64,000 bases of DNA from a virus (IMGVR_UViG_3300028410_000746), one strand, 5' to 3'; counted from the stretch's first letter, positions 1,704-44,412 are shown. The notes: generated by a model from the letters alone, not told the origin. A program made the numbers and translations.

Positions 1704-1732
1704 GTGTTCCCCGCGCGAGCGGGGAAGTTCCT
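1704..1732 (+). CRISPR. Solitary type I-E repeat
   Basis: GTGTTCCCCGCGCGAGCGGGGAAGTTCCT; 24/29 to the array-1 repeat, stem intact, no second repeat 32 nt downstream. Confidence 0.85.
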
Positions 1733-20563: not shown

Positions 20564-21250
20564 CTATTCGACAGGTTCCACGCGACGGCGGTACTGGACT
20601 CCTCGGCGGTACTTCCCCCTTAAAGCCTTCAAGGGTGTGAGATCTTGGATGTGGTTGTAATCCAGGGATATCCATCCCGCCTTCACCATGCTTGCGAGAG
20701 GCTCCACGTCGTCGATGTGGTTCCCCCCAAGGTCGAGTTCCACCATCTCTACCATTCCCGCAAGGGGCGATACGTCCTCTATTTTATTGTCCGAGAGCGT
20801 CAGGTATTCAAGCTTGGTCAGCCCTGTGATCGGGCGGGAGATCTTCGATGGCATTTCTGTCCAGGGACGGATGCAGCATTCCGACCATCTGCGCGATAGG
20901 GGTGAGGTCTTTGATGTTCAGCTCCATCGCCTCCAACTCGACGACGTTCGTGAGGCCATGCAGCCGCGCGAAGTCCTCGGCTTCGTAGAGCGCCAAATCT
21001 GTTGTGATCTTGGGGCACAGCTCCTGGAGTTCAAAGGCGCGCTCGACCTTGCTGTGACATAAAACGGGTCTGGAGACCTTGAAGTCGAGTCCCATGACGT
21101 AGGGGAGCACCTGATCCGCGTAACGCGTCGGGTCCTCTTCCCTCATGCGGTACAGGATGTGGTACAAGTGCGGTGCCTCCACCGGGTTCCCGGAGTGCAG
21201 GAGGCTACGGAGGTCGTGAAAAGCTTCGGCTTGCAGGGTTCGTCTCGCGT
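20564..21250 (-). pseudogene. Internalin-like leucine-rich-repeat gene, frameshifted
   Basis: LRR units (LTNVVELEAMELNIKDLTPI; LTKLEYLTLSDNKIEDVSPL; VELDLGGNHIDDVEPL) split over two frames by a +1 near 20838; no clear start codon. Confidence 0.7.
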
Positions 21251-22034: not shown

Positions 22035-22490
22035 TGGGACATCCCCGCGTGCGCGGGGAACACGCTCCCCTTCGATACAGAGATCTTCTTTCTACCGGGA
22101 CATCCCCGCGCACGCGGGGAACACGGGTAGAACAAGAAGATGTATGAGAGGGGATCCGGGACATCCCCGCGCACGCGGGGAACACCGGACGAGCATGGGG
22201 AGACGTATTCGCCCTACCGGGACATCCCCGCGCACGCGGGGAACACTTGAAGCTGGAAGGATGCACGAGATGTGCGTGCGGGACATCCCCGCGCACGCGG
22301 GGAACACACAGGTGTGATCACAAGAGCATGTCGCCTCATCGGGACATCCCCGCGCACGCGGGGAACACGTCAAAGCTGGTCACCTTTGGAGCGTGAACGG
22401 CGGGACATCCCCGCGCACGCGGGGAACACCATGACACCGACACACCCGCACTTGGTGCATCCGGGACATCCCCGCGCACGCGGGGAACAC
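22035..22490 (-). CRISPR. CRISPR array 1, type I-E: 8 repeats, 7 spacers of 32 nt
   Basis: 29-nt repeat GTGTTCCCCGCGTGCGCGGGGATGTCCCG with a 61-nt period. Confidence 0.99.
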
Positions 22491-22583
22491 TCTTCAAATG
22501 TTCAAGCCTTCGGAAGTGTACCTAACCCCCTGTATTCGCTCAGGAATTCTGTTGGCATGGGGTACACCGTTTTACTTTACCAA
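22491..22583 (-). promoter_or_regulatory. Leader of array 1
   Basis: Begins TTGGTA and ends AGA before the first repeat; TTGTAC-N17-TAAAGT overlaps its start. Confidence 0.85.
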
Positions 22584-22609
22584 ATCGTACCCTGCGGTAC
22601 AAGCCTGAA

Positions 22610-24817
22610 TCAGGAGGCCTTCTTGGTGGGGGCGCGGTAGTAGGTGCGCGTCCACTCCATCTGCGTCTGAGAGCCCCAGGTGAGGAGGCTCAGGATGAGG
22701 TCGTTGGCGTCGGCACCCTGACCCTCAATGCGTCCGAGGACGTTGCGGAGCTGGCGCCAGTGGCCGTTCAAGGTGCCTCCCGAACACAGGCGCTCGAACG
22801 AGCGCTCCTTGATGTCACGAGACTGCGCGAGGACGCGCGCGACGGGGCGGTTGCCCTTGAAGCCGGTGGGCTTGAGGCCCGCGAGCAGGACCGCCAGGAG
22901 GAACACGCGCTCCTGCAACTCGGGGGCGTTCTCACCAAGGTTACGCTCCACCACCTTCTCCAGGGCCTTCTCCAGCAGGATGGCGGGGCGCATGTAGCGT
23001 ACGTCCTGGAGGTTCTTGGCGCGAGAGAGCGCGACGCGGCCGGAGCCCTTGTCGTGGTGGAGGTTGCGCCACCACTTGTGGACCACGGAGAGGATCTCAT
23101 CCTTGTGGGCGTATACGATGTTGTTCATGGGGTTCTTCTCTCTCTTGGTGGAGGTGCCGCAGAGTTTGAGGAGCTGCTTTTCGAGCCCGGCTCGTTCCCT
23201 CACGGCGGATGTGATGGTGCGGGTGTTCATGCGCGATTTGCGAGTGACACGGCCTCCAACGAGGGAGTCGAAGATCGTGAGCGCGGTGGTCGCGAGGAGG
23301 CGCTTGTAGGGCGTATAGACCATCTCCTCAAGCTCCTCCCGGTTGGTCGTGAGCTTGACCTTGGCGAGCGCGTCGTATGCAGCCTGTTCGGTGTGTGACC
23401 ACAGCTCGGAGTTGTTCCGGCCTCCCAGGCAGGCGACCTTCGCGCGGAGCACCTTATCCACCTCGGACGTGAGCTTGACCAGCGCCCCGAAGGTGTCCTC
23501 ATCACGCAGAGCCTGTGAGCCCTCGAAGATGAAGATGTACTTCTCGAAGAAGCTCACCGTCTTGCCCGCAAACATGTTGAATCCGAAGACACGCAGCGGG
23601 GGAAGCCCTCCCCATACCTCATCCCAATGCTCCGCGACCTCATCGTACAGGAAGGCCTTGCGCTTGGTGTGGGTGATGATTGGGGGCGTGTGGAGGGTCT
23701 CGGAGTAGGCGTGGGAACCCAGAACGTTCCACGTGCGCCTGTTGGTGACGGTCTGCACAGCGCGGACATCTTTCACATCTTTGGGGGTCCACTTGCCGTT
23801 GACGCCCATCGTCTTGAGGTTCTTGAGGGTGGTGGCGTTGTTGGGGAGCTGCCAGACACCCGACATGGGGATGCACTGACGAGACCCCGGCAGACCTTCC
23901 CACTTCTCGGACTGCGCTGTGTAGCGCTGCCGGTTGCCCCAGGGCTGCGCATCCACGTAGTCCAGGAGCCCGTCCTCATCCGGCTCCGGCAGGACCCACT
24001 CACGCGTGAGGTGCCAGAACGCGGTCAAGGGGTGGTAGTCCAGGTCGTGAGCGCGCCACCCCTCGATCTGACTCTCTTCGACCCAGGGGAACTCGAACTC
24101 GGGGACGGTCTCCTGTCCCCACAGAGCGTTGATTTCAGGTTCAGTGAGGATGTTGTTGAGGACCTCCTCGCAGAGGTCGCGGCCGCTGAAGACGTACCAC
24201 AGGCTGCCGTTGTTTCCGTAGCCGGGTCGCGATGTGCCACGTGAGAACTTGTTCCCCGCGTCCATGCGAAACTCGGCCGCCAGGATGAACGCGATGGCGT
24301 CCCCAGGCGTCAGACGCTGCCGGGGATCACGGCCCAAGTCCATGCTGAAGGGGAGCGGCCGCGTGACCTTCTCCGAGTCGAAGTCGAAGCCTGAGGAGGA
24401 GGACCCCAGCGCGTGCGTGTTGAAGCGGTAGCGGCCTATCTCAGTGGCGCACGGCAGGTCGGACTTCTTGATCTTTCTGATATCTTCGGTCCACTCGCGC
24501 AAGGCGGGCGTGGCCTGGAACGCACGGTACCCCGGCCCGTAGACGTCGAAGAAGTCTTCCTCACTCAGAAAGCGCTTCTTGAAGTCGAGGTTCTCGCCGC
24601 GCGTCAGGTGCATCTCGACCCACTCGTCGTCGTCCTTGGGCGCGGCCACCGTCTGGACCAGTGCCTGAATGAAGTGTCGGACGCCCTCATTCATTACGGA
24701 GTGGGGGTAGTCGAGCTTGAGGCCGGGTTCCGTGAACTCGTGCGGTCGGATGAGCTTGGACTTTCCCGTGGCGTCCTGAACCCGAATCCAAGCGTCGGTC
24801 ATGAGATTGAGTGACAT
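22610..24817 (-). CDS. cas8e-cas11: Cas8e (Cse1)-Cas11 (Cse2) fusion protein
   Basis: N-term MSLNLMTDAWIRV (Cse1-like). C-terminal ~170 aa WWRNL...GRVALSRA...ERSFERL...WRQLRNVL...DLILSLLTW...EWTRTYY (Cse2-like). No stop codon between them. Confidence 0.85.
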   Translation of the reverse strand: MSLNLMTDAWIRVQDATGKSKLIRPHEFTEPGLKLDYPHSVMNEGVRHFIQALVQTVAAPKDDDEWVEMHLTRGENLDFKKRFLSEEDFFDVYGPGYRAFQATPALREWTEDIRKIKKSDLPCATEIGRYRFNTHALGSSSSGFDFDSEKVTRPLPFSMDLGRDPRQRLTPGDAIAFILAAEFRMDAGNKFSRGTSRPGYGNNGSLWYVFSGRDLCEEVLNNILTEPEINALWGQETVPEFEFPWVEESQIEGWRAHDLDYHPLTAFWHLTREWVLPEPDEDGLLDYVDAQPWGNRQRYTAQSEKWEGLPGSRQCIPMSGVWQLPNNATTLKNLKTMGVNGKWTPKDVKDVRAVQTVTNRRTWNVLGSHAYSETLHTPPIITHTKRKAFLYDEVAEHWDEVWGGLPPLRVFGFNMFAGKTVSFFEKYIFIFEGSQALRDEDTFGALVKLTSEVDKVLRAKVACLGGRNNSELWSHTEQAAYDALAKVKLTTNREELEEMVYTPYKRLLATTALTIFDSLVGGRVTRKSRMNTRTITSAVRERAGLEKQLLKLCGTSTKREKNPMNNIVYAHKDEILSVVHKWWRNLHHDKGSGRVALSRAKNLQDVRYMRPAILLEKALEKVVERNLGENAPELQERVFLLAVLLAGLKPTGFKGNRPVARVLAQSRDIKERSFERLCSGGTLNGHWRQLRNVLGRIEGQGADANDLILSLLTWGSQTQMEWTRTYYRAPTKKAS

Positions 24818-24858
24818 GGTGTGTCTCGTAGGTAGAGAGGGGAGGTGGGGAGGCGCGC

Positions 24859-25569
24859 TCAGAGCGTGTGCATGTGGGCGCTAAACTCGCGCCGCACCTT
24901 GTGGGACCCTTGACGGGTCAGATCGTGGGGCACATCACGACGGAAGGTTGACCGTCGGCTACCTTCGAGGCCAAAGTCTTCATCCCAGAACACCTGTCCC
25001 GGCACCACGGTTCGGTCAAGGTAGTAGAAGCTACTCGCCACGGCCTCCTCCAGACACTCACGCGGCGTGGTGGACTGTAGGACCCGTGGATTGAGAGGCG
25101 CGCTTGGCGGACAGCTCTTGCGGCCAAAGTAGATAGGCCAGTAGGGACGCTGGAGCGCCGCGATGATACCGTCGACGTCCTCGTCGGGTACCTGGAGCAG
25201 GACCACCCAGGTCTGGTCCTGGAGGTAGTACCTCTCCGAGGTCAGGGAGTCCGTCTTGGGGCTTTGCGGGTCCAGCTCCTCCTGGCGCGTGGTCACGTAG
25301 CCCTTGAAGCAGCGGATGAGGTGGTAGTCTCGAAGCGGCGGGGGGCTCACCGAGGCTCCCTCAAGCTGGAGCTGGACGCACGCCATCTTGATGGTGTTTG
25401 CCAGCCTCTGGTGGTGAGCCTGATCGTCACGCTCGATGCCTTGCGCGCACGCGATCATCCCGAGTATGGCCGATTTCGTCGGGCTCTGGTCCGTCGTGCG
25501 CAGCGCCGCGCGCGCCGCGTTTCCGAAGCTCATGAGAGGGGCTCGAATGTCGCAGGCGAGTGTTTGCAT
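24859..25569 (-). CDS. cas5e: Cas5e (CasD)
   Basis: APLMSFG...RTTDQSPTKSAILGMIACAQGIER...RYYLQD...YFGRKSCPP. Confidence 0.95.
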   Translation of the reverse strand: MQTLACDIRAPLMSFGNAARAALRTTDQSPTKSAILGMIACAQGIERDDQAHHQRLANTIKMACVQLQLEGASVSPPPLRDYHLIRCFKGYVTTRQEELDPQSPKTDSLTSERYYLQDQTWVVLLQVPDEDVDGIIAALQRPYWPIYFGRKSCPPSAPLNPRVLQSTTPRECLEEAVASSFYYLDRTVVPGQVFWDEDFGLEGSRRSTFRRDVPHDLTRQGSHKVRREFSAHMHTL

Positions 25570-25577
25570 AGGTACCT

Positions 25578-25623
25578 CCTTTGTGGTACTCAAAAGATAC
25601 CACAAGGTTCAAGATGGGGTCAA
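25578..25623 (-). promoter_or_regulatory. Internal promoter for cas5e-cas8e/11 overlapped by an inverted repeat
   Basis: TTGACC-N18-TATCTT with CCTTGTGG; TTGTGGTA-N9-TACCACAA spans the -10 and abuts the AGGAGG RBS. Confidence 0.6.
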
Positions 25624-25633
25624 GTGGTTCGAT

Positions 25634-26365
25634 TCAGAGGGCCACAAGGGCGGCGGCGGGCTTGAGAAGGACAAGGCCGGCCCCGAAGGCCTTGCCCCGA
25701 CCGATGCCGTTGCGCCACAGGGTCACGAACTTCTCGGGGTCGGTGACCTCGACGCGCGCCTCAAGCTGCACGAAGTCCATCGTAATGGGGTTGCGCCGTC
25801 CCACGCCCTGCTCGGAGAACACGGGGGTCAAGGCGGTGACCCTGTGCAGCTTGAAGCCGCCGTCCTCCGAGCGCCTCTCAAGCCACTCGAAGAGGAGGGC
25901 GTCGAGGTCGCGAGGCGTCTCCCCATTCGCTTCGCACATGAGCTTCTCGTAGGTCTGGAGACCCAAACGCTTGGAGCGCCCCTTGGGCACGATCCGCTCG
26001 TCACGGGTACAGACGGTGGCGTTGACCCATGCTCGGAGGTCGAGGCCGGCACCCATGTGCATCGTGGGCTGCTCGATCGTCTTGGTCAGAAGCTTCACGT
26101 AGCCGTGAGGGTCCGAGGGGATCTCCGTGGACTGGATGTAGAAGGAGGAGCCCTTGAAGGGGGTGAACATGAAGGGTCGGTCTTTGCGGTCCTCCACCGG
26201 GTCGAAGAGGTCCCAGACGAACTGGTGTGCGGTGTAGATGCCCTCGGACGTGTAGCGGGAGAGCTGCTCGATTCCCTTGGCCGTGAAGGTGGCGCGTGAG
26301 ATGTAGAGAGGGGTCGAGGTGGGGGGTGTGGTGGTGTTGAACGGGATGTTGACTTGCGTGCTCAT
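25634..26365 (-). CDS. cas6e: Cas6e (CasE) crRNA-processing endonuclease
   Basis: YTAHQFVWDLF; Gly-rich loop GIGRGKAFGAGLVLL; GGAG-ATG at 26365 (the track start at 26593 overextends). Confidence 0.95.
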   Translation of the reverse strand: MSTQVNIPFNTTTPPTSTPLYISRATFTAKGIEQLSRYTSEGIYTAHQFVWDLFDPVEDRKDRPFMFTPFKGSSFYIQSTEIPSDPHGYVKLLTKTIEQPTMHMGAGLDLRAWVNATVCTRDERIVPKGRSKRLGLQTYEKLMCEANGETPRDLDALLFEWLERRSEDGGFKLHRVTALTPVFSEQGVGRRNPITMDFVQLEARVEVTDPEKFVTLWRNGIGRGKAFGAGLVLLKPAAALVAL

Positions 26366-26375
26366 TGATAACTCC

Positions 26376-26403
26376 AAAAATACCCCCGCACGAGGCGGGG
26401 AGG
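26376..26403 (-). terminator. Repeat-like hairpin plus U-tract upstream of cas6e
   Basis: CCCCGC-CTCGT-GCGGGG followed by GTATTTTT. Confidence 0.5.
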
Positions 26404-26407
26404 TTGA

Positions 26408-26436
26408 GAGGGGACCCCCGCGTGAGCGGGGAAAGG
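26408..26436 (-). repeat. Degenerate CRISPR repeat between cas7 and cas6e
   Basis: CCTTTCCCCGCTCACGCGGGGGTCCCCTC; first 21 nt match the array-2 repeat at 19/21. Confidence 0.75.
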
Positions 26437-26441
26437 GGCAC

Positions 26442-27788
26442 TCACTCGGCGGCGGCGGTCTCGGAGGCCTCCACGGCGATACCGAGCGTCTGGTAGATGG
26501 CATCCACGATGTCATCCAGGGTCGTACACACCTCGCCGCCCGACTCCAGGGCCGTGAGGTCCTTGGTCGAGGACCACGTGAGGACACGCTCATGGTCGAC
26601 GCCCACGCGGGTCACGATGCGGTTGTGGTGGTCCTCCAGGCGCGTGAGGGCCATCTGAAGAGGATCGTTGGACTCCACAGGCACCAGGAACGCGTCGGTG
26701 TACTGAGTGTTCTGGGTCTCCCCGATGGTCACCATCAGGTAGGGGGACGGGATGCTCGCAGCCATCGTGGACTGGTTACCCGAGGGGCGCACCATCACGA
26801 GAGCCTTGACGAAGGCGTGGATGGTCTCACGGAGGAGGTCCTCCTGACCGCTCCCGAAGCGGCGAGCCAGCTCACCGATGTGGAGGCCCACGTAGGCGTA
26901 GTTGACGCCCGAGGTGAAGCTCTTGTGGCCCATATGCGAGGCGCCCGTATTGGAGTTGAAGCAGTCCTGAGCCGAGAAGAAGTCGTCCTCCTCGGGCATC
27001 ACGCCGACGCCGATGGTGTGCGCGAACTGGACGCAGGCCGCTTCATTGTCCTGTGCGAGCTGCGCGACCATGCGGCCGAAGAGGCTCACGTCGACGTTGG
27101 GCATCCTCGTGAGGTCCGTGAAGCTCTTCGCGGTCTCAGTCAGGCTCTCGAAGACGACGGAGGGGTCCGTGAAGTCCAGACCCACCAGCGCCTCGAAGCC
27201 CAGCGTCAAGACCTCCTGCTCCGCCTGCTTGAGCTTGATGGCCGAGCCGAACATGCGGCCGTCCTTCTTGTCGCTCTTTTTGTTCTTCTTCTTCTTGGTG
27301 TCTCCTTCGGACTCGTTCGACTCGTCGTCGAGAGCGTCCTTGGTCGAGTACGGCGTGATGCCTCCCTCGGCGTACAGGGTACCATCCGCGATGAGGCCCT
27401 TGAGGAGCGTGAGAAGCGCCGCTTCGGTCTTCTTGGTGAGCTTGGCGCCCTTGAAGCACTGCGTGAAGAAGTTCGGCGTCGTCATCATGTAGGCGAGCAG
27501 CGCGGCGGCTCGATACGACCTCTCAGCCTCCTGGCCCGCCTCGACGGCCTTCTCACTCTTGAAGACCAGGAACGATCTCGTGTTGTCGCTCATGACCTTG
27601 CGCTGACGGAGCACATCGAAGTGCATGGAGGCACGAATCGCCGCCTTCTCCGCTTGGCTGGAGATGCGGTAGCGCATGGCGTTCCCGAAGAAGGAACTCT
27701 TGGGGTTACCCGCGTCATCGCGGTTGATGTTGCTGGGGGGCAGCACACCGAGCATGTGGAACTGGAGCTTTGTTTTCACGTTCATCAT
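26442..27788 (-). CDS. cas7: Cas7e (CasC)
   Basis: HMLGVLPPSNINRDDAGNPK...RISSQ; DVSLFGRMVA; QFAHTI; EDDFFSAQD; TSGVNYAY. Confidence 0.97.
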   Translation of the reverse strand: MMNVKTKLQFHMLGVLPPSNINRDDAGNPKSSFFGNAMRYRISSQAEKAAIRASMHFDVLRQRKVMSDNTRSFLVFKSEKAVEAGQEAERSYRAAALLAYMMTTPNFFTQCFKGAKLTKKTEAALLTLLKGLIADGTLYAEGGITPYSTKDALDDESNESEGDTKKKKNKKSDKKDGRMFGSAIKLKQAEQEVLTLGFEALVGLDFTDPSVVFESLTETAKSFTDLTRMPNVDVSLFGRMVAQLAQDNEAACVQFAHTIGVGVMPEEDDFFSAQDCFNSNTGASHMGHKSFTSGVNYAYVGLHIGELARRFGSGQEDLLRETIHAFVKALVMVRPSGNQSTMAASIPSPYLMVTIGETQNTQYTDAFLVPVESNDPLQMALTRLEDHHNRIVTRVGVDHERVLTWSSTKDLTALESGGEVCTTLDDIVDAIYQTLGIAVEASETAAAE

Positions 27789-27859
27789 GTCTGGACTCTC
27801 ACTACAGTGGGTAAAAGGACCTTCGAGCTTTCAGAGGCTTCGTGCCTCGACGGAAACGA

Positions 27860-27915
27860 CACTAACTCCGATGTTAGAGCAGTGTCAAGCGGTTTCTTTA
27901 ACGCTTGACACTGCT
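27860..27915 (-). promoter_or_regulatory. 14-bp inverted repeat containing a putative cas7 promoter -35
   Basis: AGCAGTGTCAAGCG-N10-CGCTTGACACTGCT; minus strand reads TTGACA-N18-TAGTGT. Confidence 0.55.
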
Positions 27916-27935
27916 GTGCGGTATGAAAAAAAGAC

Positions 27936-30566
27936 CTAGAGGACTTGGAGTCCCAGGATGTGGTCGTAGATGAGGGTGACGGATACCGGGGCGCCCTTGG
28001 GGGAGAGCTTGGTCATGTTGACCCTCCACGCGTCGGCGGGTGCGCTGAGGTCGTCCACGGTCACGATCAACACGGAGTCGGTAGAGTGGAACGGGAGCTG
28101 CGCCAAAAGTTCGTGCTGCTCCGGGCTCGGGTCGAGCCGCTCTCCGGCCATGTACATGGGGATAGCGATGCCAGAGGCCTTGATGCCTCCGTTGTGGATA
28201 CGCCGGAGTCGATCGCCGTCAACGAAGTGGACCTCCCAGATGCACGTAGGGATGGCGTCTCGGGTGTGTATGGCCACGTTCTTACCCCACTTGCTGACCG
28301 ACTCACGGTAGCTGCGGGTGAAGTCGAGAGACCCCAAAACAGCCGATGCTCGCGTCTCCTGGTCACGGGCGGTGGAGGCTTGGTGCGAGCGGGCCAGACC
28401 GGCCGGAATCAGTGCGTTGATGTCGTCCAGGATCTCACGCGTATGGGTGGGAAGCTCCCAGGACCTCAAGGCACACATCGCCGCGCTGGCGTACACACGG
28501 CCTGCATCCCCATAGACGTAAGATGTCCCCCCATGATGAGGGGAGCCGCTGAGCCATTGAGCGTGTGGAGTCCCGGCCAAGGAGGGCGTGAACAGGCCCA
28601 TCTCGACGTGCACCTCTTCCCCACTCTCGTGACGCAGGACGCGACCCGAGCGCTGAATCAGGAGGTCGGCCTCGCATACATCGGAGACGCCCCAGTCAAA
28701 GCTGACATCCAAAGACTCCTGGAGCACCTGCGTGCATATGACGATGTAGCCCTCACGCTCTTGGGGATCGGCGCCCTTACCGAAGCGACGCAGCACCTCG
28801 GCGTCACGTACCTCACGGTGTCCGACCGTGTAGCGAGAGTGCAGCAAGAGCACTCGGTCATACCCTGACAAGGCTTCATAGGCCGCACAGGCGGCGCGCA
28901 CGGTGTTTCGGAACCACACCACCGCCTCACCTCGGTTGGCTCGCCGGTGCAGCTCTTCCACGATGGGGTCGAGCCCACGCCGATCCTCTTCAAAGACGTT
29001 CCAGTGCACGTGCCGGATCTGGTGTGCGTCCACCGAGACCACGTTGATGTGGCCGCTGGAGCTGACGTGCGTGAGCGCGGGCAAGGGGACATCGGGGAGG
29101 TCTACAACCTCTCCTCGATACGCGGAGGCGAGCGCGCGGCGTGTCTTGGAGTCGCAGGTGGCGCTCATGGCGATCACGGGCTGTCCCTGTCGCCCGCAGT
29201 AGGCGAGCAGGTTACAGAGCAGAGGGAGCATGTGAGCGTCGAAGGCGTGGACCTCATCTATCAGAAGCACGGTACGGGTGAGCGCGCTCAGTCGCATGGG
29301 CGCAAAGTATCGCCCGATCGTCGCCAGGAGGGCTTGGTCTATTGTGCAGACATTGATTTGCGAGAACATGCTCTGTCGGGAGGACTTGAGCAGCCACTCG
29401 GAGGCGCTAATCAGGCCTCCATTCGAGTTGCGTTGAGCCTTCCACGGCTTGAATTCACTTCGAGTCGAGTGAATGAGCGCCATCGTGACGGGCTCATCAA
29501 AGGTTGCCTCCGTCCAGGCGTGCGCACGCCCGTAGAGGCCGTTGGCGGTAGCGCGAGTAGGCAACGCCAACGTCAGCCCTTTGTAGTCGCCATCACGCAT
29601 CATCTGACGCGCGAGCGCGAGCCCTACCTCCGTCTTACCCGCCCCCGTAGAGGCCTCGATGAGGACAAACCCGTCCGCAGAACTCAAGAGGGTCTCAGCA
29701 CCTACCTGGAGAGGCCGAGGTTCCCAGGTATCGTCGAGGAGACCGCTCCAGAAGGAGTAGGTGGTAGAGAGGGGCGTGTAGAGGATCTCCACGTCTGTAC
29801 ACGCCCTCTCCGCTTGAGGCTGTGCGATGGTCTCCCAATAAGCTCTCGGGTCCATACGCGCGCCACGCAGCGGGAAGTATTCAGGCGTGGAGCCCAGCCA
29901 ATCCGAGATCATCCCGACGCCCGCCAGGAGGTAGCTCGCGAAAGGCAGGTCCGGAGGGTTGGAGTAGTCGCCACGCATGGGTCCAAATACGCCCTGGATG
30001 ATTTCGGAGAGGTACGCAGTCAGGCGCTCGTCGCACCCAGGCACTCCCCACTGGAGCTGAGCCGTACGTGGGGTGGCGCCTTCTCGCTTCTGATGAGGCA
30101 AGGCGTAGCCGTGATGGCTCAGCGCGCTATGCAGCAGCGTCGTGATGTGGCGTCGTTCCTGACGCCCAGTACCGCTCTTGAGGTACTCCCGGATCACGTT
30201 CCTGCGTTCCCATCCCACCAGATCGTGACGGGCTTCGGTCTCACGCGCACCATCAGGCTGGGGGGTGATATCCAGGAGCGTACAGGCGGGTGCGCTTCGA
30301 GCCTGGAAGTTGTCCGTGAGCTTACCGATGTCATGGCAAGCGTAGAGCATGGGGAGGTCATGCCACAGGTCGTACATGCTCACACCCAAGGCCTCCGACA
30401 AGGGACGCCACCAACGCTCCTCGTGCCTGAGCAAGTGATTCACGACCGCCGCGACGTCGAGGTTATGATACACCACGCGGTGAATGGCAGTCACGGCCTC
30501 TTGTGAGCCGGGAGGCTGGTCTGTCTTGGCCCAACAGTCCCACATACCGATAGGTTTGGTCGTCAT
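27936..30566 (-). CDS. cas3: Cas3 HD nuclease-helicase
   Basis: YHNLDVAAV, CHDIGK, SHHG; EASTGAGKTE, IDEVH, MSAT, TQVLQESLDV, QRSGRVLRH. Confidence 0.98.
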   Translation of the reverse strand: MTTKPIGMWDCWAKTDQPPGSQEAVTAIHRVVYHNLDVAAVVNHLLRHEERWWRPLSEALGVSMYDLWHDLPMLYACHDIGKLTDNFQARSAPACTLLDITPQPDGARETEARHDLVGWERRNVIREYLKSGTGRQERRHITTLLHSALSHHGYALPHQKREGATPRTAQLQWGVPGCDERLTAYLSEIIQGVFGPMRGDYSNPPDLPFASYLLAGVGMISDWLGSTPEYFPLRGARMDPRAYWETIAQPQAERACTDVEILYTPLSTTYSFWSGLLDDTWEPRPLQVGAETLLSSADGFVLIEASTGAGKTEVGLALARQMMRDGDYKGLTLALPTRATANGLYGRAHAWTEATFDEPVTMALIHSTRSEFKPWKAQRNSNGGLISASEWLLKSSRQSMFSQINVCTIDQALLATIGRYFAPMRLSALTRTVLLIDEVHAFDAHMLPLLCNLLAYCGRQGQPVIAMSATCDSKTRRALASAYRGEVVDLPDVPLPALTHVSSSGHINVVSVDAHQIRHVHWNVFEEDRRGLDPIVEELHRRANRGEAVVWFRNTVRAACAAYEALSGYDRVLLLHSRYTVGHREVRDAEVLRRFGKGADPQEREGYIVICTQVLQESLDVSFDWGVSDVCEADLLIQRSGRVLRHESGEEVHVEMGLFTPSLAGTPHAQWLSGSPHHGGTSYVYGDAGRVYASAAMCALRSWELPTHTREILDDINALIPAGLARSHQASTARDQETRASAVLGSLDFTRSYRESVSKWGKNVAIHTRDAIPTCIWEVHFVDGDRLRRIHNGGIKASGIAIPMYMAGERLDPSPEQHELLAQLPFHSTDSVLIVTVDDLSAPADAWRVNMTKLSPKGAPVSVTLIYDHILGLQVL

Positions 30567-30829
30567 GTAGCTCTCAGCTTGGCGAGATGAATGGCGTGCT
30601 TGTATTTGGCCGATTCCACGTAGGTGGAGCTTCCCAGGAGCTTCGAGCCTCCTGACGAAGAGAAGAAGCGGGCGAGGTAGGGGGGGTTCTTCTTGTAGGA
30701 GGTCTCGGAGCGGTGAATCTCCATACGACCCTCGGGGACCTCACATGTGAAGTAGCGCGTAAGCCCAGCGGGACCGTGAACTTCCCATTGCAGCGTCTTG
30801 GAGAGCTTCTCGGCAGCCGTGATTTCCAT
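30563..30829 (-). CDS. Hypothetical protein coupled to cas3
   Basis: TGATG overlap upstream and ATGA overlap with cas3. Confidence 0.65.
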   Translation of the reverse strand: MEITAAEKLSKTLQWEVHGPAGLTRYFTCEVPEGRMEIHRSETSYKKNPPYLARFFSSSGGSKLLGSSTYVESAKYKHAIHLAKLRAT

Positions 30830-31197
30830 CAAGCCACCTCTACGGGCGCGCCGCACAGGTGGCAGAACTGCGAGGCGGGGATCAGCTCAGTCCCGCAGTT
30901 GTGGCAATACACGGCCTTACGGGGACCCTCCACCTCGAACTCCCCGAGCAGGTCGAGGTACGTATCATCCCTGCATCCCGCCAAGGAGAGTCGAATGCCG
31001 GGGAGGAGGTCGTCGTGGTGGTAGTCATGACCCTTGTGCAACAAGGTCGCGTTGTCTGCGTTGGGGGGACCCTGGAGGTCATTGACCCTACGCCCTCCAG
31101 GCTTGAAGACCCATAGCCGCACGGGGTACCCTCGATCAAACTCCAGCTCTCCGGTGCGACCTGTTGTGGATGCGACTTCATACTCATGATGTTTCAT
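30829..31197 (-). CDS. Protein with C-terminal double zinc ribbon
   Basis: CHNCGTELIPASQFCHLCGAPV; GGAGG RBS. Confidence 0.7.
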   Translation of the reverse strand: MKHHEYEVASTTGRTGELEFDRGYPVRLWVFKPGGRRVNDLQGPPNADNATLLHKGHDYHHDDLLPGIRLSLAGCRDDTYLDLLGEFEVEGPRKAVYCHNCGTELIPASQFCHLCGAPVEVA

Positions 31198-31200
31198 ATC

Positions 31201-31247
31201 TCAACCTCCTGTGGTCTGTATATACCACAGGAGGTTGAAGCTGTAAA
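31201..31247 (-). promoter_or_regulatory. Repeated phage promoter P4 with a 14-bp inverted repeat
   Basis: TTTACA-N17-TATATA; TCAACCTCCTGTGG-N10-CCACAGGAGGTTGA covers the -10 and the RBS. Confidence 0.75.
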
Positions 31248-31580
31248 AGGAAAACCCCACGTGTGTGGGGAAGGGGCGCGTAACTGCGGGGGAGGTCGTA
31301 GGAGCAGGGGAACATCCCCGCGTGTGCGGGGAAGGGCAACTGTATCAACTCAGCGTCCGGGAGTACGTGGGAACATCCCCGCGTGTGCGGGGAAGGGTTT
31401 TTGGGCGATCTTGCCCCTTTGGATGATCGGGGAACATCCCCGCGTGTGCGGGGAAGGGTTGAGCGTGTCGGCGGCGTCGTCGAGGGCGTAGGGGACATCC
31501 CCGCGTGTGCGGGGAAGGGGCGCTGACGCGCTCCCCCAAGACCGTGATCGTGGGGACATCCCCGCGTGTGCGGGGAAGGG
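31247..31580 (-). CRISPR. CRISPR array 2: 5 repeats plus 1 degenerate trailer, 5 spacers of 32 nt
   Basis: Repeat CCCTTCCCCGCACACGCGGGGATGT(T/C)CCC with a 61-nt period. Confidence 0.98.
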
Positions 31581-31725
31581 TCTGTGCCAAGAAGTCACAT
31601 GCGTTAGATCGCGTAAGTATTCGGTTTTCAAAGACTTCTCAGATCCAGCGCCGTTCGGTGCCACCCTTGAGCGACCTCTCCGAGGTCCTTATGGTAACCT
31701 TGGAGAGGGAGACCTGTCAAGCCTC
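31581..31725 (-). promoter_or_regulatory. Promoter and leader of array 2
   Basis: GAAAGAGGC-TTGACA-N18-TACCAT; homologous to 33545-33712. Confidence 0.8.
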
Positions 31726-31751
31726 TTTCACAGCCTCGAAGAACACGGGGA

Positions 31752-31780
31752 GGGGACATCCCCGCGTGTACGGGGAAGAG
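31752..31780 (-). CRISPR. Solitary repeat upstream of the array-2 promoter
   Basis: CTCTTCCCCGTACACGCGGGGATGTCCCC preceded by the leader end TGGCACAGA. Confidence 0.85.
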
Positions 31781-31927
31781 TCTGTGCCATACGTGTGAAC
31801 TTGAGCATGGGGAAGTCCTCAAAGAAGAAGTAGGGGTCCACGGATTTTCGAGGGTAGCGAAAAAAGCAGCATTGGTAACCTCTTTTGGCAGGGATACCAC
31901 AACCACCTCCCCCACGTCAAGGGGGTA

Positions 31928-32524
31928 TTACGTGCTCCAACGTGCGCCGTGGAACGTGTGCTCCACATCTCGTCCAGCCTGATCCGGGAAGACGGGATGC
32001 TGGGCAGAGTAGCCCAAGGTCAGGAGCTTGAGGTAGGCCATGTAGCAGGGGTTGAACAGGACCTTGATGTCGAAGTGGTTGAGCCCTGACCCCTTACACT
32101 TCTGCTCCAGCGTGGAGATGTAGGGACACGTGATCTCCGTGCTGTCCCAGTTGTATCCTTCCACGAAGGCGGAAGCGGCGGCATCCTCCGCCCACTGTCG
32201 AACCTTGGTGAGGGTGTCCAGGGGGCGATCACGAACTCGTCGGTGCTTGATCGCCTCCTCAAACACCAGATCGTATTCACGCTGGAGGTAGTCCTGAAGA
32301 CGCAACCCCTTCGAGGCGGAGGTACGACGTGGGCGAGCCCCAGCACCAAGAGCTGCTTCACGTGCAAGCGTGAGGGTCTCCTCCTTGGTTCGGTAGCTCG
32401 GATCTTCGGCCGTGATCAGGCCCGCCTGGATGGCGGTCGTAATCGCGACGCGGTAATGCGCGGTCTCTGGCTTTGTATCGTAGAACTCGACAGCTTCCAG
32501 GACGTCTTGTGCGGTGGGCTTCAT
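31928..32524 (-). CDS. Hypothetical protein
   Basis: 198-aa ATG ORF. Confidence 0.65.
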   Translation of the reverse strand: MKPTAQDVLEAVEFYDTKPETAHYRVAITTAIQAGLITAEDPSYRTKEETLTLAREAALGAGARPRRTSASKGLRLQDYLQREYDLVFEEAIKHRRVRDRPLDTLTKVRQWAEDAAASAFVEGYNWDSTEITCPYISTLEQKCKGSGLNHFDIKVLFNPCYMAYLKLLTLGYSAQHPVFPDQAGRDVEHTFHGARWST

Positions 32525-32577
32525 TTGAAGGCTCCAGGTTGTAGATAGAGTTAAGGATCGCGCTCTTGTTGCTTGCC

Positions 32578-32952
32578 TCAGGATTTACTTCCAATGCGTA
32601 GGGCGGTACCCGAGCGCGCGTTGCCACCCACGCTCAAGCATGTGAGAGAGGTACCCGCGCGTACATCACCTGCGATGCCCTCCCCTACAGTCACGCTGCC
32701 TCCCGCCTTCACCTCTCCCGTCACACTGCCCCTTTCCACGTGTACGGACCCCACATCGCCAGGGAGGGTCACGCGGAACTCTTCATTGTCCGTGACCACC
32801 TCTCCATGCACTTCATCATCGACGAGGATTGTGTACCGTACGACGACCTTCACGCCCTTCCGCTCTTCGCGCGTCCCACCTCCAATAGAAATGTGCGCGC
32901 CCGAGATGGTAGAGTTGGAGATGTTCCCCGAGATCGTGATGTTCTTGCTCAT
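32578..32952 (-). CDS. Beta-helix (bactofilin-like) protein
   Basis: ISGNISNSTISG and VTGEVKAGGSVTVGEGIAGDVRAG repeats; AGGAG RBS. Confidence 0.55.
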   Translation of the reverse strand: MSKNITISGNISNSTISGAHISIGGGTREERKGVKVVVRYTILVDDEVHGEVVTDNEEFRVTLPGDVGSVHVERGSVTGEVKAGGSVTVGEGIAGDVRAGTSLTCLSVGGNARSGTALRIGSKS

Positions 32953-33085
32953 GTGCCTTTCTCCTGAGTGTGAAACGGGTCAGATAGGATGTACCACAGC
33001 ACATGAGCGATGGTAAAGCACGAAAAAGCCCCTCCGTGCGGCAGCTCTTCAGCTACGACATGGAGGGGCTTTGAGGGGTCGATCT

Positions 33086-33445
33086 TCAGACGCTCAGGGA
33101 GGCCTTGCCGTAGTACGAGTTGGACATCGCGGACGCCTTCCAGCCCCACTCGTCACGGCAATACTGCAAGAACTGAGACCGCTCCAGAACCACCTCTTCC
33201 TTGACAGACATGCTGAACATGTCGATCACCTCCTCGTAGTCCTTGACATGGCTCGTAGGGCACTGACCCTCAAGCCTCTTGAGCTTCCGGGGGAAGGACG
33301 TGAGGTCCGAGACATCCATCTCCTCACACGTCTCCTGGAGGTCCTCGCGCCACAGCTTGAGCGCCTCCAGGTAAGTCTTCTCGTGCGTCTCCATGTTAGC
33401 TTCGAGTCGCTCCAGCAACTCCTCCGTCTTGACCGTAACCTGCAT
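33086..33445 (-). CDS. Hypothetical protein
   Basis: GAGGTGGAG-ATG; MQVTVKTEELLERLEANMETHE. Confidence 0.65.
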   Translation of the reverse strand: MQVTVKTEELLERLEANMETHEKTYLEALKLWREDLQETCEEMDVSDLTSFPRKLKRLEGQCPTSHVKDYEEVIDMFSMSVKEEVVLERSQFLQYCRDEWGWKASAMSNSYYGKASLSV

Positions 33446-33544
33446 CTCTCCACCTCTGTACATGCCCATCTTGATATCCTCGATCGCGAGTGAGCGTCGA
33501 AGGTAACTCAGACATGCCTCGCCGTCAAGTCGGGGGGTATCTTG

Positions 33545-33712
33545 AAAGAGGCTTGACACATCCGGCGTGTTGCGGTTACAGTAATGAAGCCTGGAGCGGT
33601 GGAGAGCGGTGGAGAGCGGTGGAGAGCGGTGACCTTGTTTGGCACCGAACCTGAGAAGTCTTTGAAAACCGAATACTTACGTCATTCCGCTCATGTGACT
33701 TCTTGGCACAGA
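33545..33712 (+). promoter_or_regulatory. Promoter and leader of array 3 (contains GGAGAGCGGT x3 at 33601-33630)
   Basis: GAAAGAGGC-TTGACA-N18-TACAGT; shares GAGAAGTCTTTGAAAACCGAATACTTACG and CATGTGACTTCTTGGCACAGA with the array-2 leader. Confidence 0.8.
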
Positions 33713-34312
33713 CCTTTCCCCACGCACGTGGGGATGTTCCCATGTAGCAAGACATGTAGTAGGAGGCGCTGGGCCTTTCCCCACGCACGTGGGGATGTTC
33801 CCTACAGGAGTTCCTTGGGGGCTATCTGAGGGGGCCTTTCCCCACGCACGTGGGGATGTTCCCGTGGGGCGGTCTGGATGAGGCAGGCATCCTCACCTTT
33901 CCCCACGCACGTGGGGATGTTCCGCGTCCGCATCAAGGGCCGCAACCTGGGTGGGCCCTTTCCCCACGCACGTGGGGATGTTCCCTCACCTCGAAGGGTC
34001 CCCGCCCCCTCAAAGTCCCTTTCCCCACGCACGTGGGGATGTTCCCTTCCTCCAGGATCTCAGTGTCTTCGGGAACGTCCTTTCCCCACGCACGTGGGGC
34101 TGTTCCTGTTCCTGTTCCTGTTCCTGTTCCGCCTTGGCTCCCAGGACCATCGCTCGTGACGAGCCCTTCCCCGTACACGCGGGGGTGTTCCCTCTGTGCT
34201 ACCGCAGCGTCGACCTTGGCCCCCTTCCCCGCACACGCGGGGATGTCCCGTCCAAAATCGTCCGTGGTCCCCCGTGAGGCCCTCTTCCCCACGCACGTGG
34301 GGACTTTGTTCC
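33713..34312 (+). CRISPR. CRISPR array 3: 10 repeats, 9 spacers
   Basis: Repeat CCTTTCCCCACGCACGTGGGGATGTTCCC. Repeat 7 is expanded by CTGTTC x5; the last three repeats diverge. Confidence 0.98.
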
Positions 34313-43307: not shown

Positions 43308-43371
43308 AATAATCTTCTTGTAAGAGCGGGTGAGTGTTGACTACCAAGACCCCCCTTCGGAGAATCCCCAC

Positions 43372-44412
43372 ATGTCCCACGTCAAGCTGGCTCAGCGTGT
43401 CGCGTACCTCTACTCCCACCGCCACGCCGCGCAGTTCAAGTATGCGGGGCCTCTCACCGACGTGAGCAAGCTCCGGTACCAAGCGGTGTTCCTGATGGGG
43501 CCTGCGGGGTCGGGCAAGTCGTACCTCGTGGACGGCATGTATATGAAGTACATGCCCGGAGCCCCTCCGGAGGGCGTCAAGAGAGAGAACCTGTCCAAAT
43601 ACTTTGAGCGTGATCTTAGCGAGGCCGAGCGAGGCCTCACCAACGTCACCTTTGACAAGGCCGTGGAGTCGCTCCGTTCTCGGGGATTCGAGATTGAGTT
43701 GGCCCAAGGAGGAGGAAGCGCGCGTATCCCCTTCCGCCTCTACACCTACGACGAGACGGGAGGTGAGGCCCTGATCGACCCTTCGGACTATGGTAACGCC
43801 CTCCCCAAAGACATTTACCAGGAGGTCAAGGAGCTGGAGTCTGTGATCTATCGCGCTCCCAAGCGTGAGCTGCCCTCATACTGGCGTCAGGTGAACCCGG
43901 ACCTCTACAAGGAGGAGCTTATAGGTTACCGAGAGGGTCAGCCGGGCTTTGTCCATGAGATGTCTTCTCAGATGTCGAAGGGCTACTTCGCGGCCGCTCT
44001 TGAGTCCGGAGATCCGATGGTCGTGGACGGTACGGGCACGAACCTGCGCAAGATGACCCGGCAGATCGCGGAGGCGAAGGCCGAGGGATATCAGACCAGC
44101 GTGGTCTACGTCTACGTACCTTTGACCATCTCCCTTCTGCGCAACGCAGCCAGGGCGCGCAAGGTAGACCCCTTCGTCGTCTTGAACCAGTGGAAGGCTG
44201 TACACAAGAACTACCCCAAGCTCCGTGGCTTCGCAGACAAGGCCAAGCTCATCGACAACTCCAACCCTTCCTACGATGCCAAGCTGTACCAGACCAAGGG
44301 GGAGGGTGTAGACCAGTTCATGCGTCAGAAGACCAACATGTCCCTCGCGGAGTTCGTCATGGCCGAGGCGCCACAGGAGCGCTCGGTGCTCAAGAAGTTG
44401 GGCGCTCTCTGA
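43372..44412 (+). CDS. Zeta-toxin-like / AAA_33 P-loop kinase
   Basis: VFLMGPAGSGKS; VNPD; MVVDGTG; VVYVYVPLTISLLRNAARARKV; LIDNS. Confidence 0.8.
   Translation: MSHVKLAQRVAYLYSHRHAAQFKYAGPLTDVSKLRYQAVFLMGPAGSGKSYLVDGMYMKYMPGAPPEGVKRENLSKYFERDLSEAERGLTNVTFDKAVESLRSRGFEIELAQGGGSARIPFRLYTYDETGGEALIDPSDYGNALPKDIYQEVKELESVIYRAPKRELPSYWRQVNPDLYKEELIGYREGQPGFVHEMSSQMSKGYFAAALESGDPMVVDGTGTNLRKMTRQIAEAKAEGYQTSVVYVYVPLTISLLRNAARARKVDPFVVLNQWKAVHKNYPKLRGFADKAKLIDNSNPSYDAKLYQTKGEGVDQFMRQKTNMSLAEFVMAEAPQERSVLKKLGAL

What the first reader, a model, noticed from the sequence alone, without database searches (positions are those of the whole stretch)
22035..34312. Phage-borne, rearranged type I-E CRISPR-Cas: full Cascade plus Cas3, three arrays, no cas1/cas2
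Seen: the order is cas3, cas7, cas6e, cas5e, cas8e-cas11, leader, array, inserted between two virion genes, with 21 spacers in three arrays. Established: canonical I-E order is cas3-cas8e-cas11-cas7-cas5-cas6-cas1-cas2, and many large-phage CRISPR loci lack adaptation genes. Inference: this is a self-sufficient interference module, with intact-looking Cas3 HD and helicase motifs, that borrows host Cas1-Cas2 and targets competing phages/MGEs or host genes.
Basis: partly seen in the sequence, partly recalled or inferred. Interest (0 to 1): 0.85.

Follow-up and report, generated by a model that had tools for sequence, protein, structure and literature searches.

The report
Giant-phage type I-E CRISPR-Cas variant
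A giant lake-water phage carries its own complete DNA-cutting CRISPR-Cas system of an unusual, rearranged type I-E form, with no genes for acquiring new spacers; a related, fully assembled 437-kb phage has the same system at the same place in its genome.

Summary
On the minus strand, HMMs identify cas3, cas7e, cas6e, cas5e and one ORF fusing cas8e to cas11e (window 22610-30566). Three I-E-type arrays flank them (8, 6 and 10 repeats; 21 spacers).

The record is a 125-kb piece of a phage contig of at least 373 kb from lake water. It holds two further arrays and several lone repeats.

Among 1.84 billion representative proteins, only two full-length relatives of the fusion turned up. Both sit in loci with matching gene order. 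One of these lineages lies in a complete 437-kb phage with terminal repeats, where the locus occupies the same slot in the tail-gene block. That genome has no cas1 or cas2, and it also has arrays between its cas genes.

Intact features:
- Cas3 HD and helicase motifs.
- The sequence context of the Cas6e catalytic His.
- The repeat hairpin, maintained by compensatory changes.

Met564, preceded by a purine-rich tract, lies where free-standing Cas11 proteins begin, so separate Cas11 may be made by internal translation.

Spacer targets are unresolved. Two spacers give partial, 5'-anchored matches (23-24 nt) to structural genes of unrelated phages. Use of host Cas1-Cas2 is still inference.

Verdict: a new variant of a known kind. 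The scan has noted Cas8e-Cas11 fusions before, on other DNA.

The parts
22035..22490 (-). CRISPR array A1: 8 repeats of 29 nt and 7 spacers of 32 nt. The degenerate repeat is at the 22035 end.
   Evidence: hairpin fold
22491..22609 (-). Leader of A1 ('alpha' type). It ends in GAACATTTGAAGA, and the same end precedes three stand-alone arrays in the 437-kb relative.
22610..24817 (-). cas8e::cas11e fusion gene (735 aa). The candidate internal start is Met564, preceded by a purine-rich tract.
24859..25569 (-). cas5e (236 aa as called on the 373-kb contig; the ORF can extend to 25605)
25594..25623 (-). Promoter-like site (TTGACC, 18-nt spacer, TATCTT, with TG before the second hexamer) between cas6e and cas5e, next to a short palindrome
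   Evidence: consensus match only
25634..26365 (-). cas6e (243 aa). The His in YTAHQFVWDLF matches the context of the E. coli catalytic His20.
   Evidence: the E. coli sequence context is from my own knowledge
26383..26436 (-). Degenerate repeat hairpin (26408-26436) followed by a terminator-like hairpin with a T-run (26383-26401), between cas7e and cas6e. Relatives have a 4-6-repeat array in this position.
26442..27788 (-). cas7e (448 aa), about 70 aa longer than solved Cas7e proteins between aa 58 and 229
27936..30566 (-). cas3 (876 aa) with HD nuclease and SF2 helicase motifs present
30563..31197 (-). Two small genes upstream of cas3 with overlapping stop and start codons: a 122-aa protein with a C-terminal zinc ribbon (30829-31197) and an 88-aa protein (30563-30829). 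Relatives also have two small genes here, one of them a zinc-ribbon protein, but with no clear sequence similarity.
31247..31580 (-). CRISPR array A2: 6 repeats and 5 spacers
31581..31720 (-). Promoter (TTGACA, 18-nt spacer, TACCAT) and 'beta' leader of A2, ending in TGGCACAGA
31752..31780 (-). Lone repeat preceded by a copy of the leader end
33553..33712 (+). Promoter (TTGACA, 18-nt spacer, TACAGT) and 'beta' leader of A3, homologous to the A2 leader
33713..34310 (+). CRISPR array A3: 10 repeats and 9 spacers. The last three repeats are of other variants, and one 56-nt interval contains a (GTTCCT)n slippage run.
1704..1732 (+). Lone I-E-type repeat far from the cas genes

Best explanation
[quoted passage not shown] It is carried as a stable, inherited component by a lineage of giant (about 370-440 kb) freshwater phages. 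Several promoter-driven arrays scattered over the phage genome are transcribed. Cas6e cuts the conserved repeat hairpins. Cas7, Cas5e, Cas6e and the Cas8e::Cas11 fusion assemble on each crRNA into a Cascade complex. Free Cas11 is probably also made, from an internal start at Met564, as it is in types I-B, I-C and I-D. Cascade binds matching DNA and recruits the intact Cas3 nuclease-helicase to destroy it. The most likely targets are other phages or mobile elements competing for the same host cell. The phage has no cas1 or cas2, so any new spacers must come from a host type I-E adaptation complex acting in trans on the conserved leaders, or from recombination. Shown: gene identities, motif integrity, array structure, hairpin covariation, phage context, conservation of the locus and its position, and absence of cas1/cas2 in a complete relative. 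Inferred: assembly, internal translation, interference activity, target class and the route of spacer gain.
For: All five cas genes are recognised by three HMM libraries. Cas3 aligns to solved Cas3 (4q2c, E 2e-52) with H, HD, HH and D of the HD domain and the GxGKT, DEvH, SAT and QRxGR helicase motifs in place. These positions are also invariant in the three-sequence clade alignment. The repeats fold into the I-E-type 7-bp hairpin. Among 80 unique repeats from the two phages, pair 10-17 is GC 56, AT 16, CG 3 (98% paired, against 8% when the partner is slid by one), while the loops vary freely. Phage context: the record is an IMG/VR virus record with a CheckV completeness estimate of 27%; the same proteins lie on a 373,477-bp contig; Baseplate_J, a baseplate protein, family A DNA polymerase, DnaB and PhoH are in the window. 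Lineage: a Cas3 profile finds IMGVR_UViG_3300021978_000001, 437,490 bp, with a 149-bp terminal repeat and 100% CheckV completeness. It has the same cas order in the same slot between the 743-aa protein and the baseplate genes. It has no Cas1 or Cas2 by HMM or by tblastn. Two leader-end types are conserved between the two phages, although the Cas proteins are only 27-49% identical. Met564 lies within about 3 residues of where stand-alone Cas11e proteins begin in the alignments. It is preceded by a GA-rich tract like those before the cas3 and cas7 starts, and the L005 orthologue has a Met with an AAGGA tract at the same place. The precedent for internal Cas11 translation is bioRxiv 10.1101/2020.04.18.045682. 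Two spacers match structural genes of unrelated phages over their first 23-24 nt.
Against: No activity has been measured, and no RNA data were found. No full-length protospacer was found: the seven spacer seed scans gave nothing, one chance-like hit, or matches that stop after 23-24 nt. The window's own record is only about a third of the phage, so cas1/cas2 elsewhere in this particular genome is not excluded. The third fusion lineage (L006) has no Met at the junction. The host is unknown: repeats with the same handles occur in Corynebacterium, Gordonia, Pseudoclavibacter and Roseomonas arrays. So the presence of a compatible host Cas1-Cas2 is untested.
Confidence: 0.78

Rival explanations
1. 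The system mainly binds rather than cuts. Guides with only handle-proximal complementarity direct Cascade to sit on target genes (of competitors, of the host, or of the phage's own cas operon) and silence them, in the manner of crRNA-like regulatory RNAs, with Cas3 used rarely or not at all.
For: Most of the target matches found are anchored at spacer position 1 and stop abruptly. The window's A1 spacer 1 matches 23/23 nt and then 3/9. A2 spacer 2 matches 24/24 nt and then 2/8. In relative L001, a spacer matches 27/27 nt of its own cas3 and 26/27 nt of sister phages' cas3. Lone repeats and mini-arrays are scattered across the genome. Regulatory cr-like RNAs are documented in PMC10120712 and bioRxiv 10.1101/2024.10.29.618823; I saw only their abstracts.
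Against: Cas3 is intact and conserved at about 50% identity across the clade, making it the best-conserved Cas protein. That argues it is used. My scans asked only for positions 1-23, so the anchoring is partly built in, and the matches could equally be to homologues of the true targets. None of the window's spacers matches its own cas locus above chance.
Confidence: 0.12
2. It is an ICP1-like counter-defence system, with spacers aimed at a host defence island or a phage-parasitic satellite rather than at other phages.
For: ICP1 is the only experimentally studied phage CRISPR-Cas, and it works this way (PMC11656645). Most of the spacers have no match in the viral collections searched.
Against: No host or satellite match was found, although host genomes could not be searched with the spacers. 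The two partial hits fall in phage virion genes.
Confidence: 0.1
3. It is a decaying relic captured from a bacterium that no longer functions.
For: Adaptation genes are missing. There are degenerate repeats, a slippage run inside A3, and only a remnant where relatives have an array between cas7 and cas6e.
Against: All five ORFs are intact here and in relatives that are only 27-49% identical. Gene order and genomic position are conserved. Catalytic motifs are kept, hairpins are maintained by compensatory changes, and spacer content differs completely between relatives.
Confidence: 0.04
4. The contig is bacterial (a chromosome or plasmid) and the locus is an ordinary host I-E system.
For: The repeats are generic I-E repeats shared with several bacterial genera. 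Pfam models for a tail sheath and for a Terminase_6N domain found nothing.
Against: There are baseplate genes next to the locus, plus phage-type replication genes. The record is classed as a virus. The syntenic relative is a complete 437-kb genome with terminal repeats. No bacterial locus with this gene order turned up among the closest relatives of the fusion in 1.84 billion representative proteins.
Confidence: 0.02

Closest known systems
Canonical type I-E CRISPR-Cas (E. coli K-12, Thermobifida fusca; Cascade = Cse1 x1, Cse2 x2, Cas7 x6, Cas5e x1, Cas6e x1, plus Cas3)
   Same: The same six protein families, 29-nt hairpin repeats, 32-nt spacers, Cas3 with a fused HD domain, and the Cas6e His context.
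   Different: The gene order is cas3-cas7-cas6e-cas5e-cas8e::cas11 instead of cas3-cas8e-cas11-cas7-cas5-cas6-cas1-cas2. Cas8e and Cas11 are one ORF. There is no cas1/cas2. Two small extra genes sit ahead of cas3. Many dispersed arrays each have their own promoter. Cas7 carries an insertion of about 70 aa. The proteins are very divergent: the Cse1 HMM scores below NCBIfam's cut-off and Cas3 scores far below the equivalog cut-off.
Adaptation-less CRISPR-Cas systems of huge phages (Al-Shayeb et al. 2020 Nature; 2022 Cell, both cited from memory and via PMC11656645)
   Same: It is encoded on a phage genome larger than 200 kb and lacks Cas1/Cas2, so it presumably depends on the host for spacers. 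An inter-virus conflict role has been proposed for such systems.
   Different: I could not find this particular I-E arrangement in the searchable literature. The two primary papers are not in the library, so prior description cannot be excluded.
Types I-B, I-C and I-D, where Cas11 is translated from an internal start inside the large-subunit gene (McBride et al., bioRxiv 10.1101/2020.04.18.045682)
   Same: A Cas11-like C-terminal part of the large-subunit ORF, an in-frame Met preceded by a GA-rich tract at the domain boundary, and no separate cas11 gene.
   Different: Here the parts are clearly Cas8e plus Cas11e by HMM. It therefore looks like a secondary fusion within I-E. Internal initiation is untested and is not conserved in one of the three lineages.
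Other Cas8e-Cas11 fusions: P0126 in loci L007-L009, and earlier scan findings e1-371783 and e1-1907854
   Same: A single ORF with Cse1 and Cse2 domains in a phage-like context.
   Different: P0126 sits in the canonical order (cas8e::cas11-cas7-cas5-cas6-cas1-cas2) on 74% G+C DNA, and it aligns to the window's protein only over the Cas11 part. The fusion has therefore arisen more than once, or it predates the rearrangement.
Type IV-A3 plasmid systems that acquire spacers through host I-E Cas1-Cas2 in trans (bioRxiv 10.1101/2023.06.23.546257; PMC11656645)
   Same: A mobile-element system without an adaptation module whose arrays still turn over. This is a precedent for the borrowing mechanism proposed here.
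   Different: It is a different effector type (DinG, no Cas3) on plasmids, not phages. Trans-adaptation is not shown for this phage.

Membership tests
Type I-E CRISPR-Cas | Cas7e (Cse4/CasC) backbone subunit | tested here: met
   TIGR01869 scores 182.1 bits against a cut-off of 178.05; PF09344 E 5.6e-58
Type I-E CRISPR-Cas | Cas8e (Cse1) large subunit | tested here: met
   PF09481 scores 67.6 bits against a cut-off of 24.7, over aa 4-500. The NCBIfam equivalog scores only 41.6 against 70.05, so the protein is divergent.
Type I-E CRISPR-Cas | Cas11e (Cse2) small subunit | tested here: met
   TIGR02548 scores 38 bits against a cut-off of 28.5, over aa 579-729, and three PADLOC Cas11e models also match. 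It is present only as the C-terminal part of the Cas8e ORF.
Type I-E CRISPR-Cas | Cas5e and Cas6e | tested here: met
   TIGR01868 scores 142.1 against 68.95; TIGR01907 scores 72.4 against 45.2
Type I-E CRISPR-Cas | Cas3 with HD nuclease fused to an SF2 helicase | tested here: met
   PF18019, PF22590 and TIGR01587 all score above their cut-offs. The motifs are seen in the alignment to 4q2c.
Type I-E CRISPR-Cas | 29-nt repeats with a 7-bp stem, and 32-nt spacers | tested here: met
Type I-E CRISPR-Cas | cas1e-cas2e adaptation module in the locus | tested here: not met
   None was found in the 125-kb record or in the complete 437-kb relative, by HMM or by tblastn. The rest of the 373-kb contig was not available.
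Type I-E CRISPR-Cas | Canonical operon order cas3, cas8e, cas11, cas7, cas5, cas6 | tested here: not met
   The order is cas3, cas7, cas6e, cas5e, cas8e::cas11. This order is conserved in L005 and L054, and the partial contigs L001 (cas3-cas7) and L006 (cas5e-fusion) are consistent with it.
Type I-E CRISPR-Cas | AAG-type PAM read by Cas8e | tested here: inconclusive
   Only two partial matches were available, with flanks CGC and GGC. That is too few, and they may not be the true protospacers.
Virus-encoded, adaptation-less CRISPR-Cas of huge phages | Located on a bona fide phage genome larger than 200 kb | tested here: met
Virus-encoded, adaptation-less CRISPR-Cas of huge phages | Spacers target other viruses or host genes | tested here: inconclusive
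   There are two 23-24-nt anchored matches to phage virion genes. The other spacers scanned gave no hit or a chance-like hit, and there is no self-target in 125 kb.
Regulatory cr-like RNA (CreR/CreA-type) mini-arrays | A guide with partial complementarity to the system's own cas promoter or gene | tested here: not met
   None of the window's spacers matches its own cas locus above chance. A relative (L001) does have a spacer matching its own cas3 over 27/27 nt.

The most novel reading that the evidence does not exclude
This phage lineage has reorganised type I-E into a 'guide-interleaved' operon. Arrays sit between the cas genes (intact in the 437-kb relative, a remnant here), so that Cas6e processing of one long transcript yields both crRNAs and separated cas mRNAs. 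The phages use the system against close kin, including each other's cas3. One relative carries a spacer matching the HD-motif region of cas3. It is 26/27 identical to the sister phages' copy, where the single mismatch falls at position 12 (an unpaired, every-sixth position by analogy with E. coli Cascade) and the flank is AAC. Its own copy has a repeat-like CCC flank instead. The faster divergence of Cas proteins than of virion proteins would then reflect an arms race between related giant phages.
Probability: 0.25. Interest if true: 0.85.

Novelty: new variant of a known kind. Interest (0 to 1): 0.62.

Why it matters
Phage-borne CRISPR-Cas systems are rare, and only one (Vibrio phage ICP1, type I-F) has been studied experimentally. 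This is a full Cascade-plus-Cas3 system that a lineage of giant freshwater phages has kept at a fixed locus over long divergence while dropping the adaptation genes. It has three unusual features: a rearranged operon, a natural Cas8e-Cas11 fusion, and a dozen promoter-driven arrays spread across the genome. Three questions become directly testable:
- How many free Cas11 subunits does a I-E Cascade need?
- Can a mobile element's arrays be fed by a host I-E integrase through conserved leaders?
- Do giant phages use CRISPR against each other?
The natural fusion and the compact five-gene layout could also interest people who engineer type I systems.

Tried and rejected
- Megablast of the window's left part and of the locus against the 50,697 GenBank phage records: no match.
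- BLAST of array A1 against the same collection: only repeat-like noise.
- The search for related loci with the fusion protein alone in IMG/VR: nothing. The word-index protein search found only the protein itself. The exhaustive HMMER search and a Cas3 profile were needed.
- Six spacer seed scans (positions 1-23, every sixth base free) in IMG/VR. Four gave no hit. One hit (L080) is best read as chance, because all three free positions mismatch and the tail is random. One (L081) is a 24-nt anchored match.
- The one metagenome scan gave L079, a 23-nt anchored match.
- Self-targeting: no spacer of the window's phage matches its own 125 kb or the 437-kb relative, and none of the relative's 53 spacers matches either genome outside the arrays.
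- Host assignment from repeats: ambiguous between Actinomycetota and Roseomonas.
- Rfam: no family at gathering score over the locus.
- Pfam sheath and Terminase_6N models: no hits in either phage.
- The hairpin pair between cas7 and cas6e does not fold better than shuffled sequence (z -0.06), so I do not claim a structured regulatory element there, only a repeat remnant and a terminator-like site.
- The small neighbouring ORFs show no Cas-like or known anti-CRISPR families.
- The two small proteins ahead of cas3 are not detectably homologous to those in the relatives.
- Literature searches found no description of this arrangement, but Al-Shayeb et al. 2022 is not in the library.

Full report
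WHAT IS THERE

The window is bases 26049-90048 of a 125,429-bp IMG/VR virus record, which CheckV rates 27% complete. The same Cas proteins lie on a 373,477-bp ENA contig. Public runs holding the locus are lake-water metagenomes.

Five large ORFs lie on the minus strand between 22610 and 30566. Pfam, NCBIfam and PADLOC recognise them as Cas3e, Cas7e, Cas6e, Cas5e and a 735-aa protein. That last protein matches Cse1 models over residues 4-500 and Cse2/Cas11e models over residues 579-729.

Three arrays of 29-nt repeats at a 61-nt period flank the genes:
- A1, 22035-22490, read on the minus strand: 8 repeats.
- A2, 31247-31580, minus strand: 6 repeats.
- A3, 33713-34310, plus strand: 10 repeats.

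In each array the degenerate repeat is at the end far from the leader. A2 and A3 have homologous leaders behind near-consensus promoters.

- Two small genes with overlapping start and stop codons ahead of cas3: a 122-aa zinc-ribbon protein and an 88-aa protein.
- Lone repeats at 1704, 26408 and 31752.
- Two further arrays in the same record but outside the finding.

IS IT INTACT?

Cas3 aligns with solved Cas3 (4q2c, E 2e-52). It has the HD-domain histidines and aspartates and helicase motifs I, II, III and VI. Cas6e has a His in the sequence context of the E. coli catalytic His20 (the E. coli sequence is from my own knowledge). Cas7 carries an insertion of about 70 residues compared with solved Cas7e proteins.

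All repeat variants fold into the same 7-bp, 4-nt-loop hairpin. Across 80 unique repeats from this phage and its relative, the inner stem pairs covary (pair 10-17: GC 56, AT 16, CG 3) while the loops differ freely. That is what selection for Cas6e recognition predicts.

IS IT A PHAGE, AND ARE CAS1 AND CAS2 REALLY MISSING?

The window holds a baseplate protein and a Baseplate_J protein just right of the locus. It also holds a family A DNA polymerase, an intein-bearing DnaB, PhoH and an AAA ATPase with phage-family matches.

A profile of three Cas3 sequences found IMGVR_UViG_3300021978_000001, which is 437,490 bp with a 149-bp terminal repeat and a CheckV completeness of 100%. I fetched the whole genome. 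Of 111 heuristically picked ORFs in the window's record (longest open frames with high third-position G+C), 64 have homologues there, with a median identity of 58%. The order around the locus is the same: 2277-aa protein, 743-aa protein, CRISPR-Cas, 206-aa protein, baseplate protein, Baseplate_J.

Neither genome gives any Cas1 or Cas2 hit by Pfam HMM. Neither gives one by tblastn with a I-E Cas1 and Cas2, while a Cas7 control is found in both. The adaptation-less state therefore holds for a complete member of the lineage. For the window's own phage it holds only for the third I could read.

HOW RARE IS THE ARRANGEMENT?

An exhaustive HMMER search of 1.84 billion representative proteins found only two full-length relatives of the fusion, at 30-31% identity. 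It also found a third, separate kind of Cas8e-Cas11 fusion that aligns only over the Cas11 part.

Contexts:
- L005 has two small genes, then cas3, cas7, cas6e, cas5e and the fusion, the same order as here.
- L006 shows cas5e followed by the fusion.
- L001 shows two small genes, cas3 and cas7.
- The separate fusion, P0126, sits in the canonical order with cas1 and cas2, on 74% G+C DNA.

So the rearranged order plus the fusion defines a small clade with at least three lineages. In the L005/L054 lineage, arrays also sit between cas7 and cas6e, between cas6e and cas5e, and directly after the fusion gene. The window keeps only a degenerate repeat and a terminator-like hairpin between cas7 and cas6e, and a promoter-like site before cas5e.

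The complete relative has about 75 repeats in some twelve places, all on one strand. Two leader-end types are shared between the two phages, even though their Cas proteins are only 27-49% identical: GAACATTTGAAGA, and GTGAC...TGGCACAGA or its variant ending TGTCTCAGA. That argues the leaders are functional.

The Cas proteins are clearly more diverged than the neighbouring virion proteins, which are 56-85% identical. I cannot explain this. An arms race is one possibility.

THE FUSION

The ORF is identical on the 373-kb ENA contig and the Logan contig L004, and it is a single ORF in all orthologues, so it is not an assembly artefact. Stand-alone Cas11e proteins align from their residues 8-19 to fusion residues 569-579. 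That places their N-termini at about residues 561-567.

Met564 sits there, preceded by a GA-rich tract like those before the cas3 and cas7 starts. L005 has a Met with an AAGGA tract at the same column. L006 does not.

By analogy with types I-B, I-C and I-D (bioRxiv 10.1101/2020.04.18.045682), I think it more likely than not that free Cas11 is made from this internal start and joins one tethered copy. This is inference.

TARGETS

No spacer matches the phage's own 125 kb or the relative's genome, and the two phages share no spacers.

I scanned seven spacers for their first 23 nt:
- Four found nothing.
- One hit looks like chance.
- A1 spacer 1 matches 23/23 nt, then 3/9, in a tail-fibre-like gene with a Peptidase_S74 chaperone domain. 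The gene is on an unrelated phage contig.
- A2 spacer 2 matches 24/24 nt, then 2/8, in the head-scaffolding gene next to the major head gene of a 73% G+C phage.

Exact 23-24-mers are unlikely by chance. The unmatched tails mean these are at best homologues of the true protospacers, or the guides are only partly complementary by design. The flanks, CGC and GGC, are too few to define a PAM.

A relative (L001) carries a spacer that matches the HD-motif region of cas3:
- 27/27 against its own copy, where the flank is the repeat-like CCC.
- 26/27 against the sister phages' copies, where the flank is AAC and the one mismatch is at position 12.

This fits either kin-versus-kin targeting or autoregulation. 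It lies outside the window.

COMPARISON AND VERDICT

Functionally this is a type I-E interference module. It passes every protein and repeat criterion for I-E. It fails on gene order and on the adaptation module, and its large subunit is a fusion.

Adaptation-less CRISPR-Cas systems in huge phages are known (PMC11656645; Al-Shayeb et al. 2020 and 2022, cited from memory). Trans-use of a host I-E integrase is documented for plasmid type IV-A3 (bioRxiv 10.1101/2023.06.23.546257). I found no description of this particular arrangement, but the key survey paper is not in the library. Earlier agents of this scan have already reported Cas8e-Cas11 fusions on other phage-like DNA.

I rate it a new variant of a known kind, of moderate-to-good interest. 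The main reading is well supported. The source of the spacers and their targets remain open.

Noticed in passing
L001:2851-2884 against L001:4062-4088, L005:1324-1350 and L054:10427-10453: A spacer in a related phage's array matches the HD-motif region of cas3. It is 27/27 against its own gene (flank CCC, like the repeat end) and 26/27 against two sister phages' cas3 (flank AAC; the mismatch is at spacer position 12). This is either phage-versus-kin targeting of the rival's CRISPR nuclease or autoregulation.
   Followed up: partly
L005:108-139 against L005:668-699: Another spacer in a relative matches its own zinc-ribbon gene just upstream of cas3 at 29/32. Two of the three mismatches are at seed positions 3 and 8.
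   Followed up: no
L054:14215-14551, L054:15322-15702 and L054:18724-19236; also L005:5107-5320 and L005:6092-6408: In the 437-kb relative and in L005, CRISPR arrays lie between cas7 and cas6e, between cas6e and cas5e, and (in L054) right after the fusion gene. They have the same orientation as the genes, with very short leaders, which implies co-transcription with the cas mRNA.
   Followed up: partly
window 17093-42892 compared with the 437-kb relative (G001): Cas proteins are 27-49% identical between the two phages, whereas the flanking virion proteins are 56-85% identical and the median for 60 shared ORFs is 58%. The cas genes are evolving faster than their neighbours.
   Followed up: partly
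window 61666-63981 (-): The DnaB-like helicase gene is interrupted by an intein with a LAGLIDADG homing-endonuclease domain (Pfam Intein_splicing, LAGLIDADG_3, DnaB_C).
   Followed up: no
L007:5515-11434 and L009: A second, separate kind of Cas8e-Cas11 fusion (688 aa) lies in the canonical order cas8e::cas11-cas7-cas5-cas6-cas1-cas2 on 74% G+C, phage-like contigs. No cas3 is visible upstream.
   Followed up: no
window 34096-34130 (+): Inside array A3, the 3' end of one repeat has expanded into a (GTTCCT)n run, giving a 56-nt interval instead of a 32-nt spacer. The last three repeats of A3 belong to other repeat variants.
   Followed up: no
window 31205-31245 (-) and 25580-25610 (-): Two similar palindromes containing TGTGGTAT overlap the ribosome-binding regions or promoters of the 122-aa gene and of cas5e. 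They may be a shared operator.
   Followed up: no
window 43330-44412 (+) and 20564-20854 (-): There is a 360-aa protein with a Zeta-toxin/AAA_33 kinase-like domain, and a 96-aa leucine-rich-repeat protein among the small genes downstream of array A1.
   Followed up: no
G001 (L057-L078): 110409-110730, 127052-127757, 405004-405817, 408209-408652: The complete relative carries further I-E arrays far from its cas genes, all on the same strand. This matches the dispersed arrays in the window's phage.
   Followed up: partly
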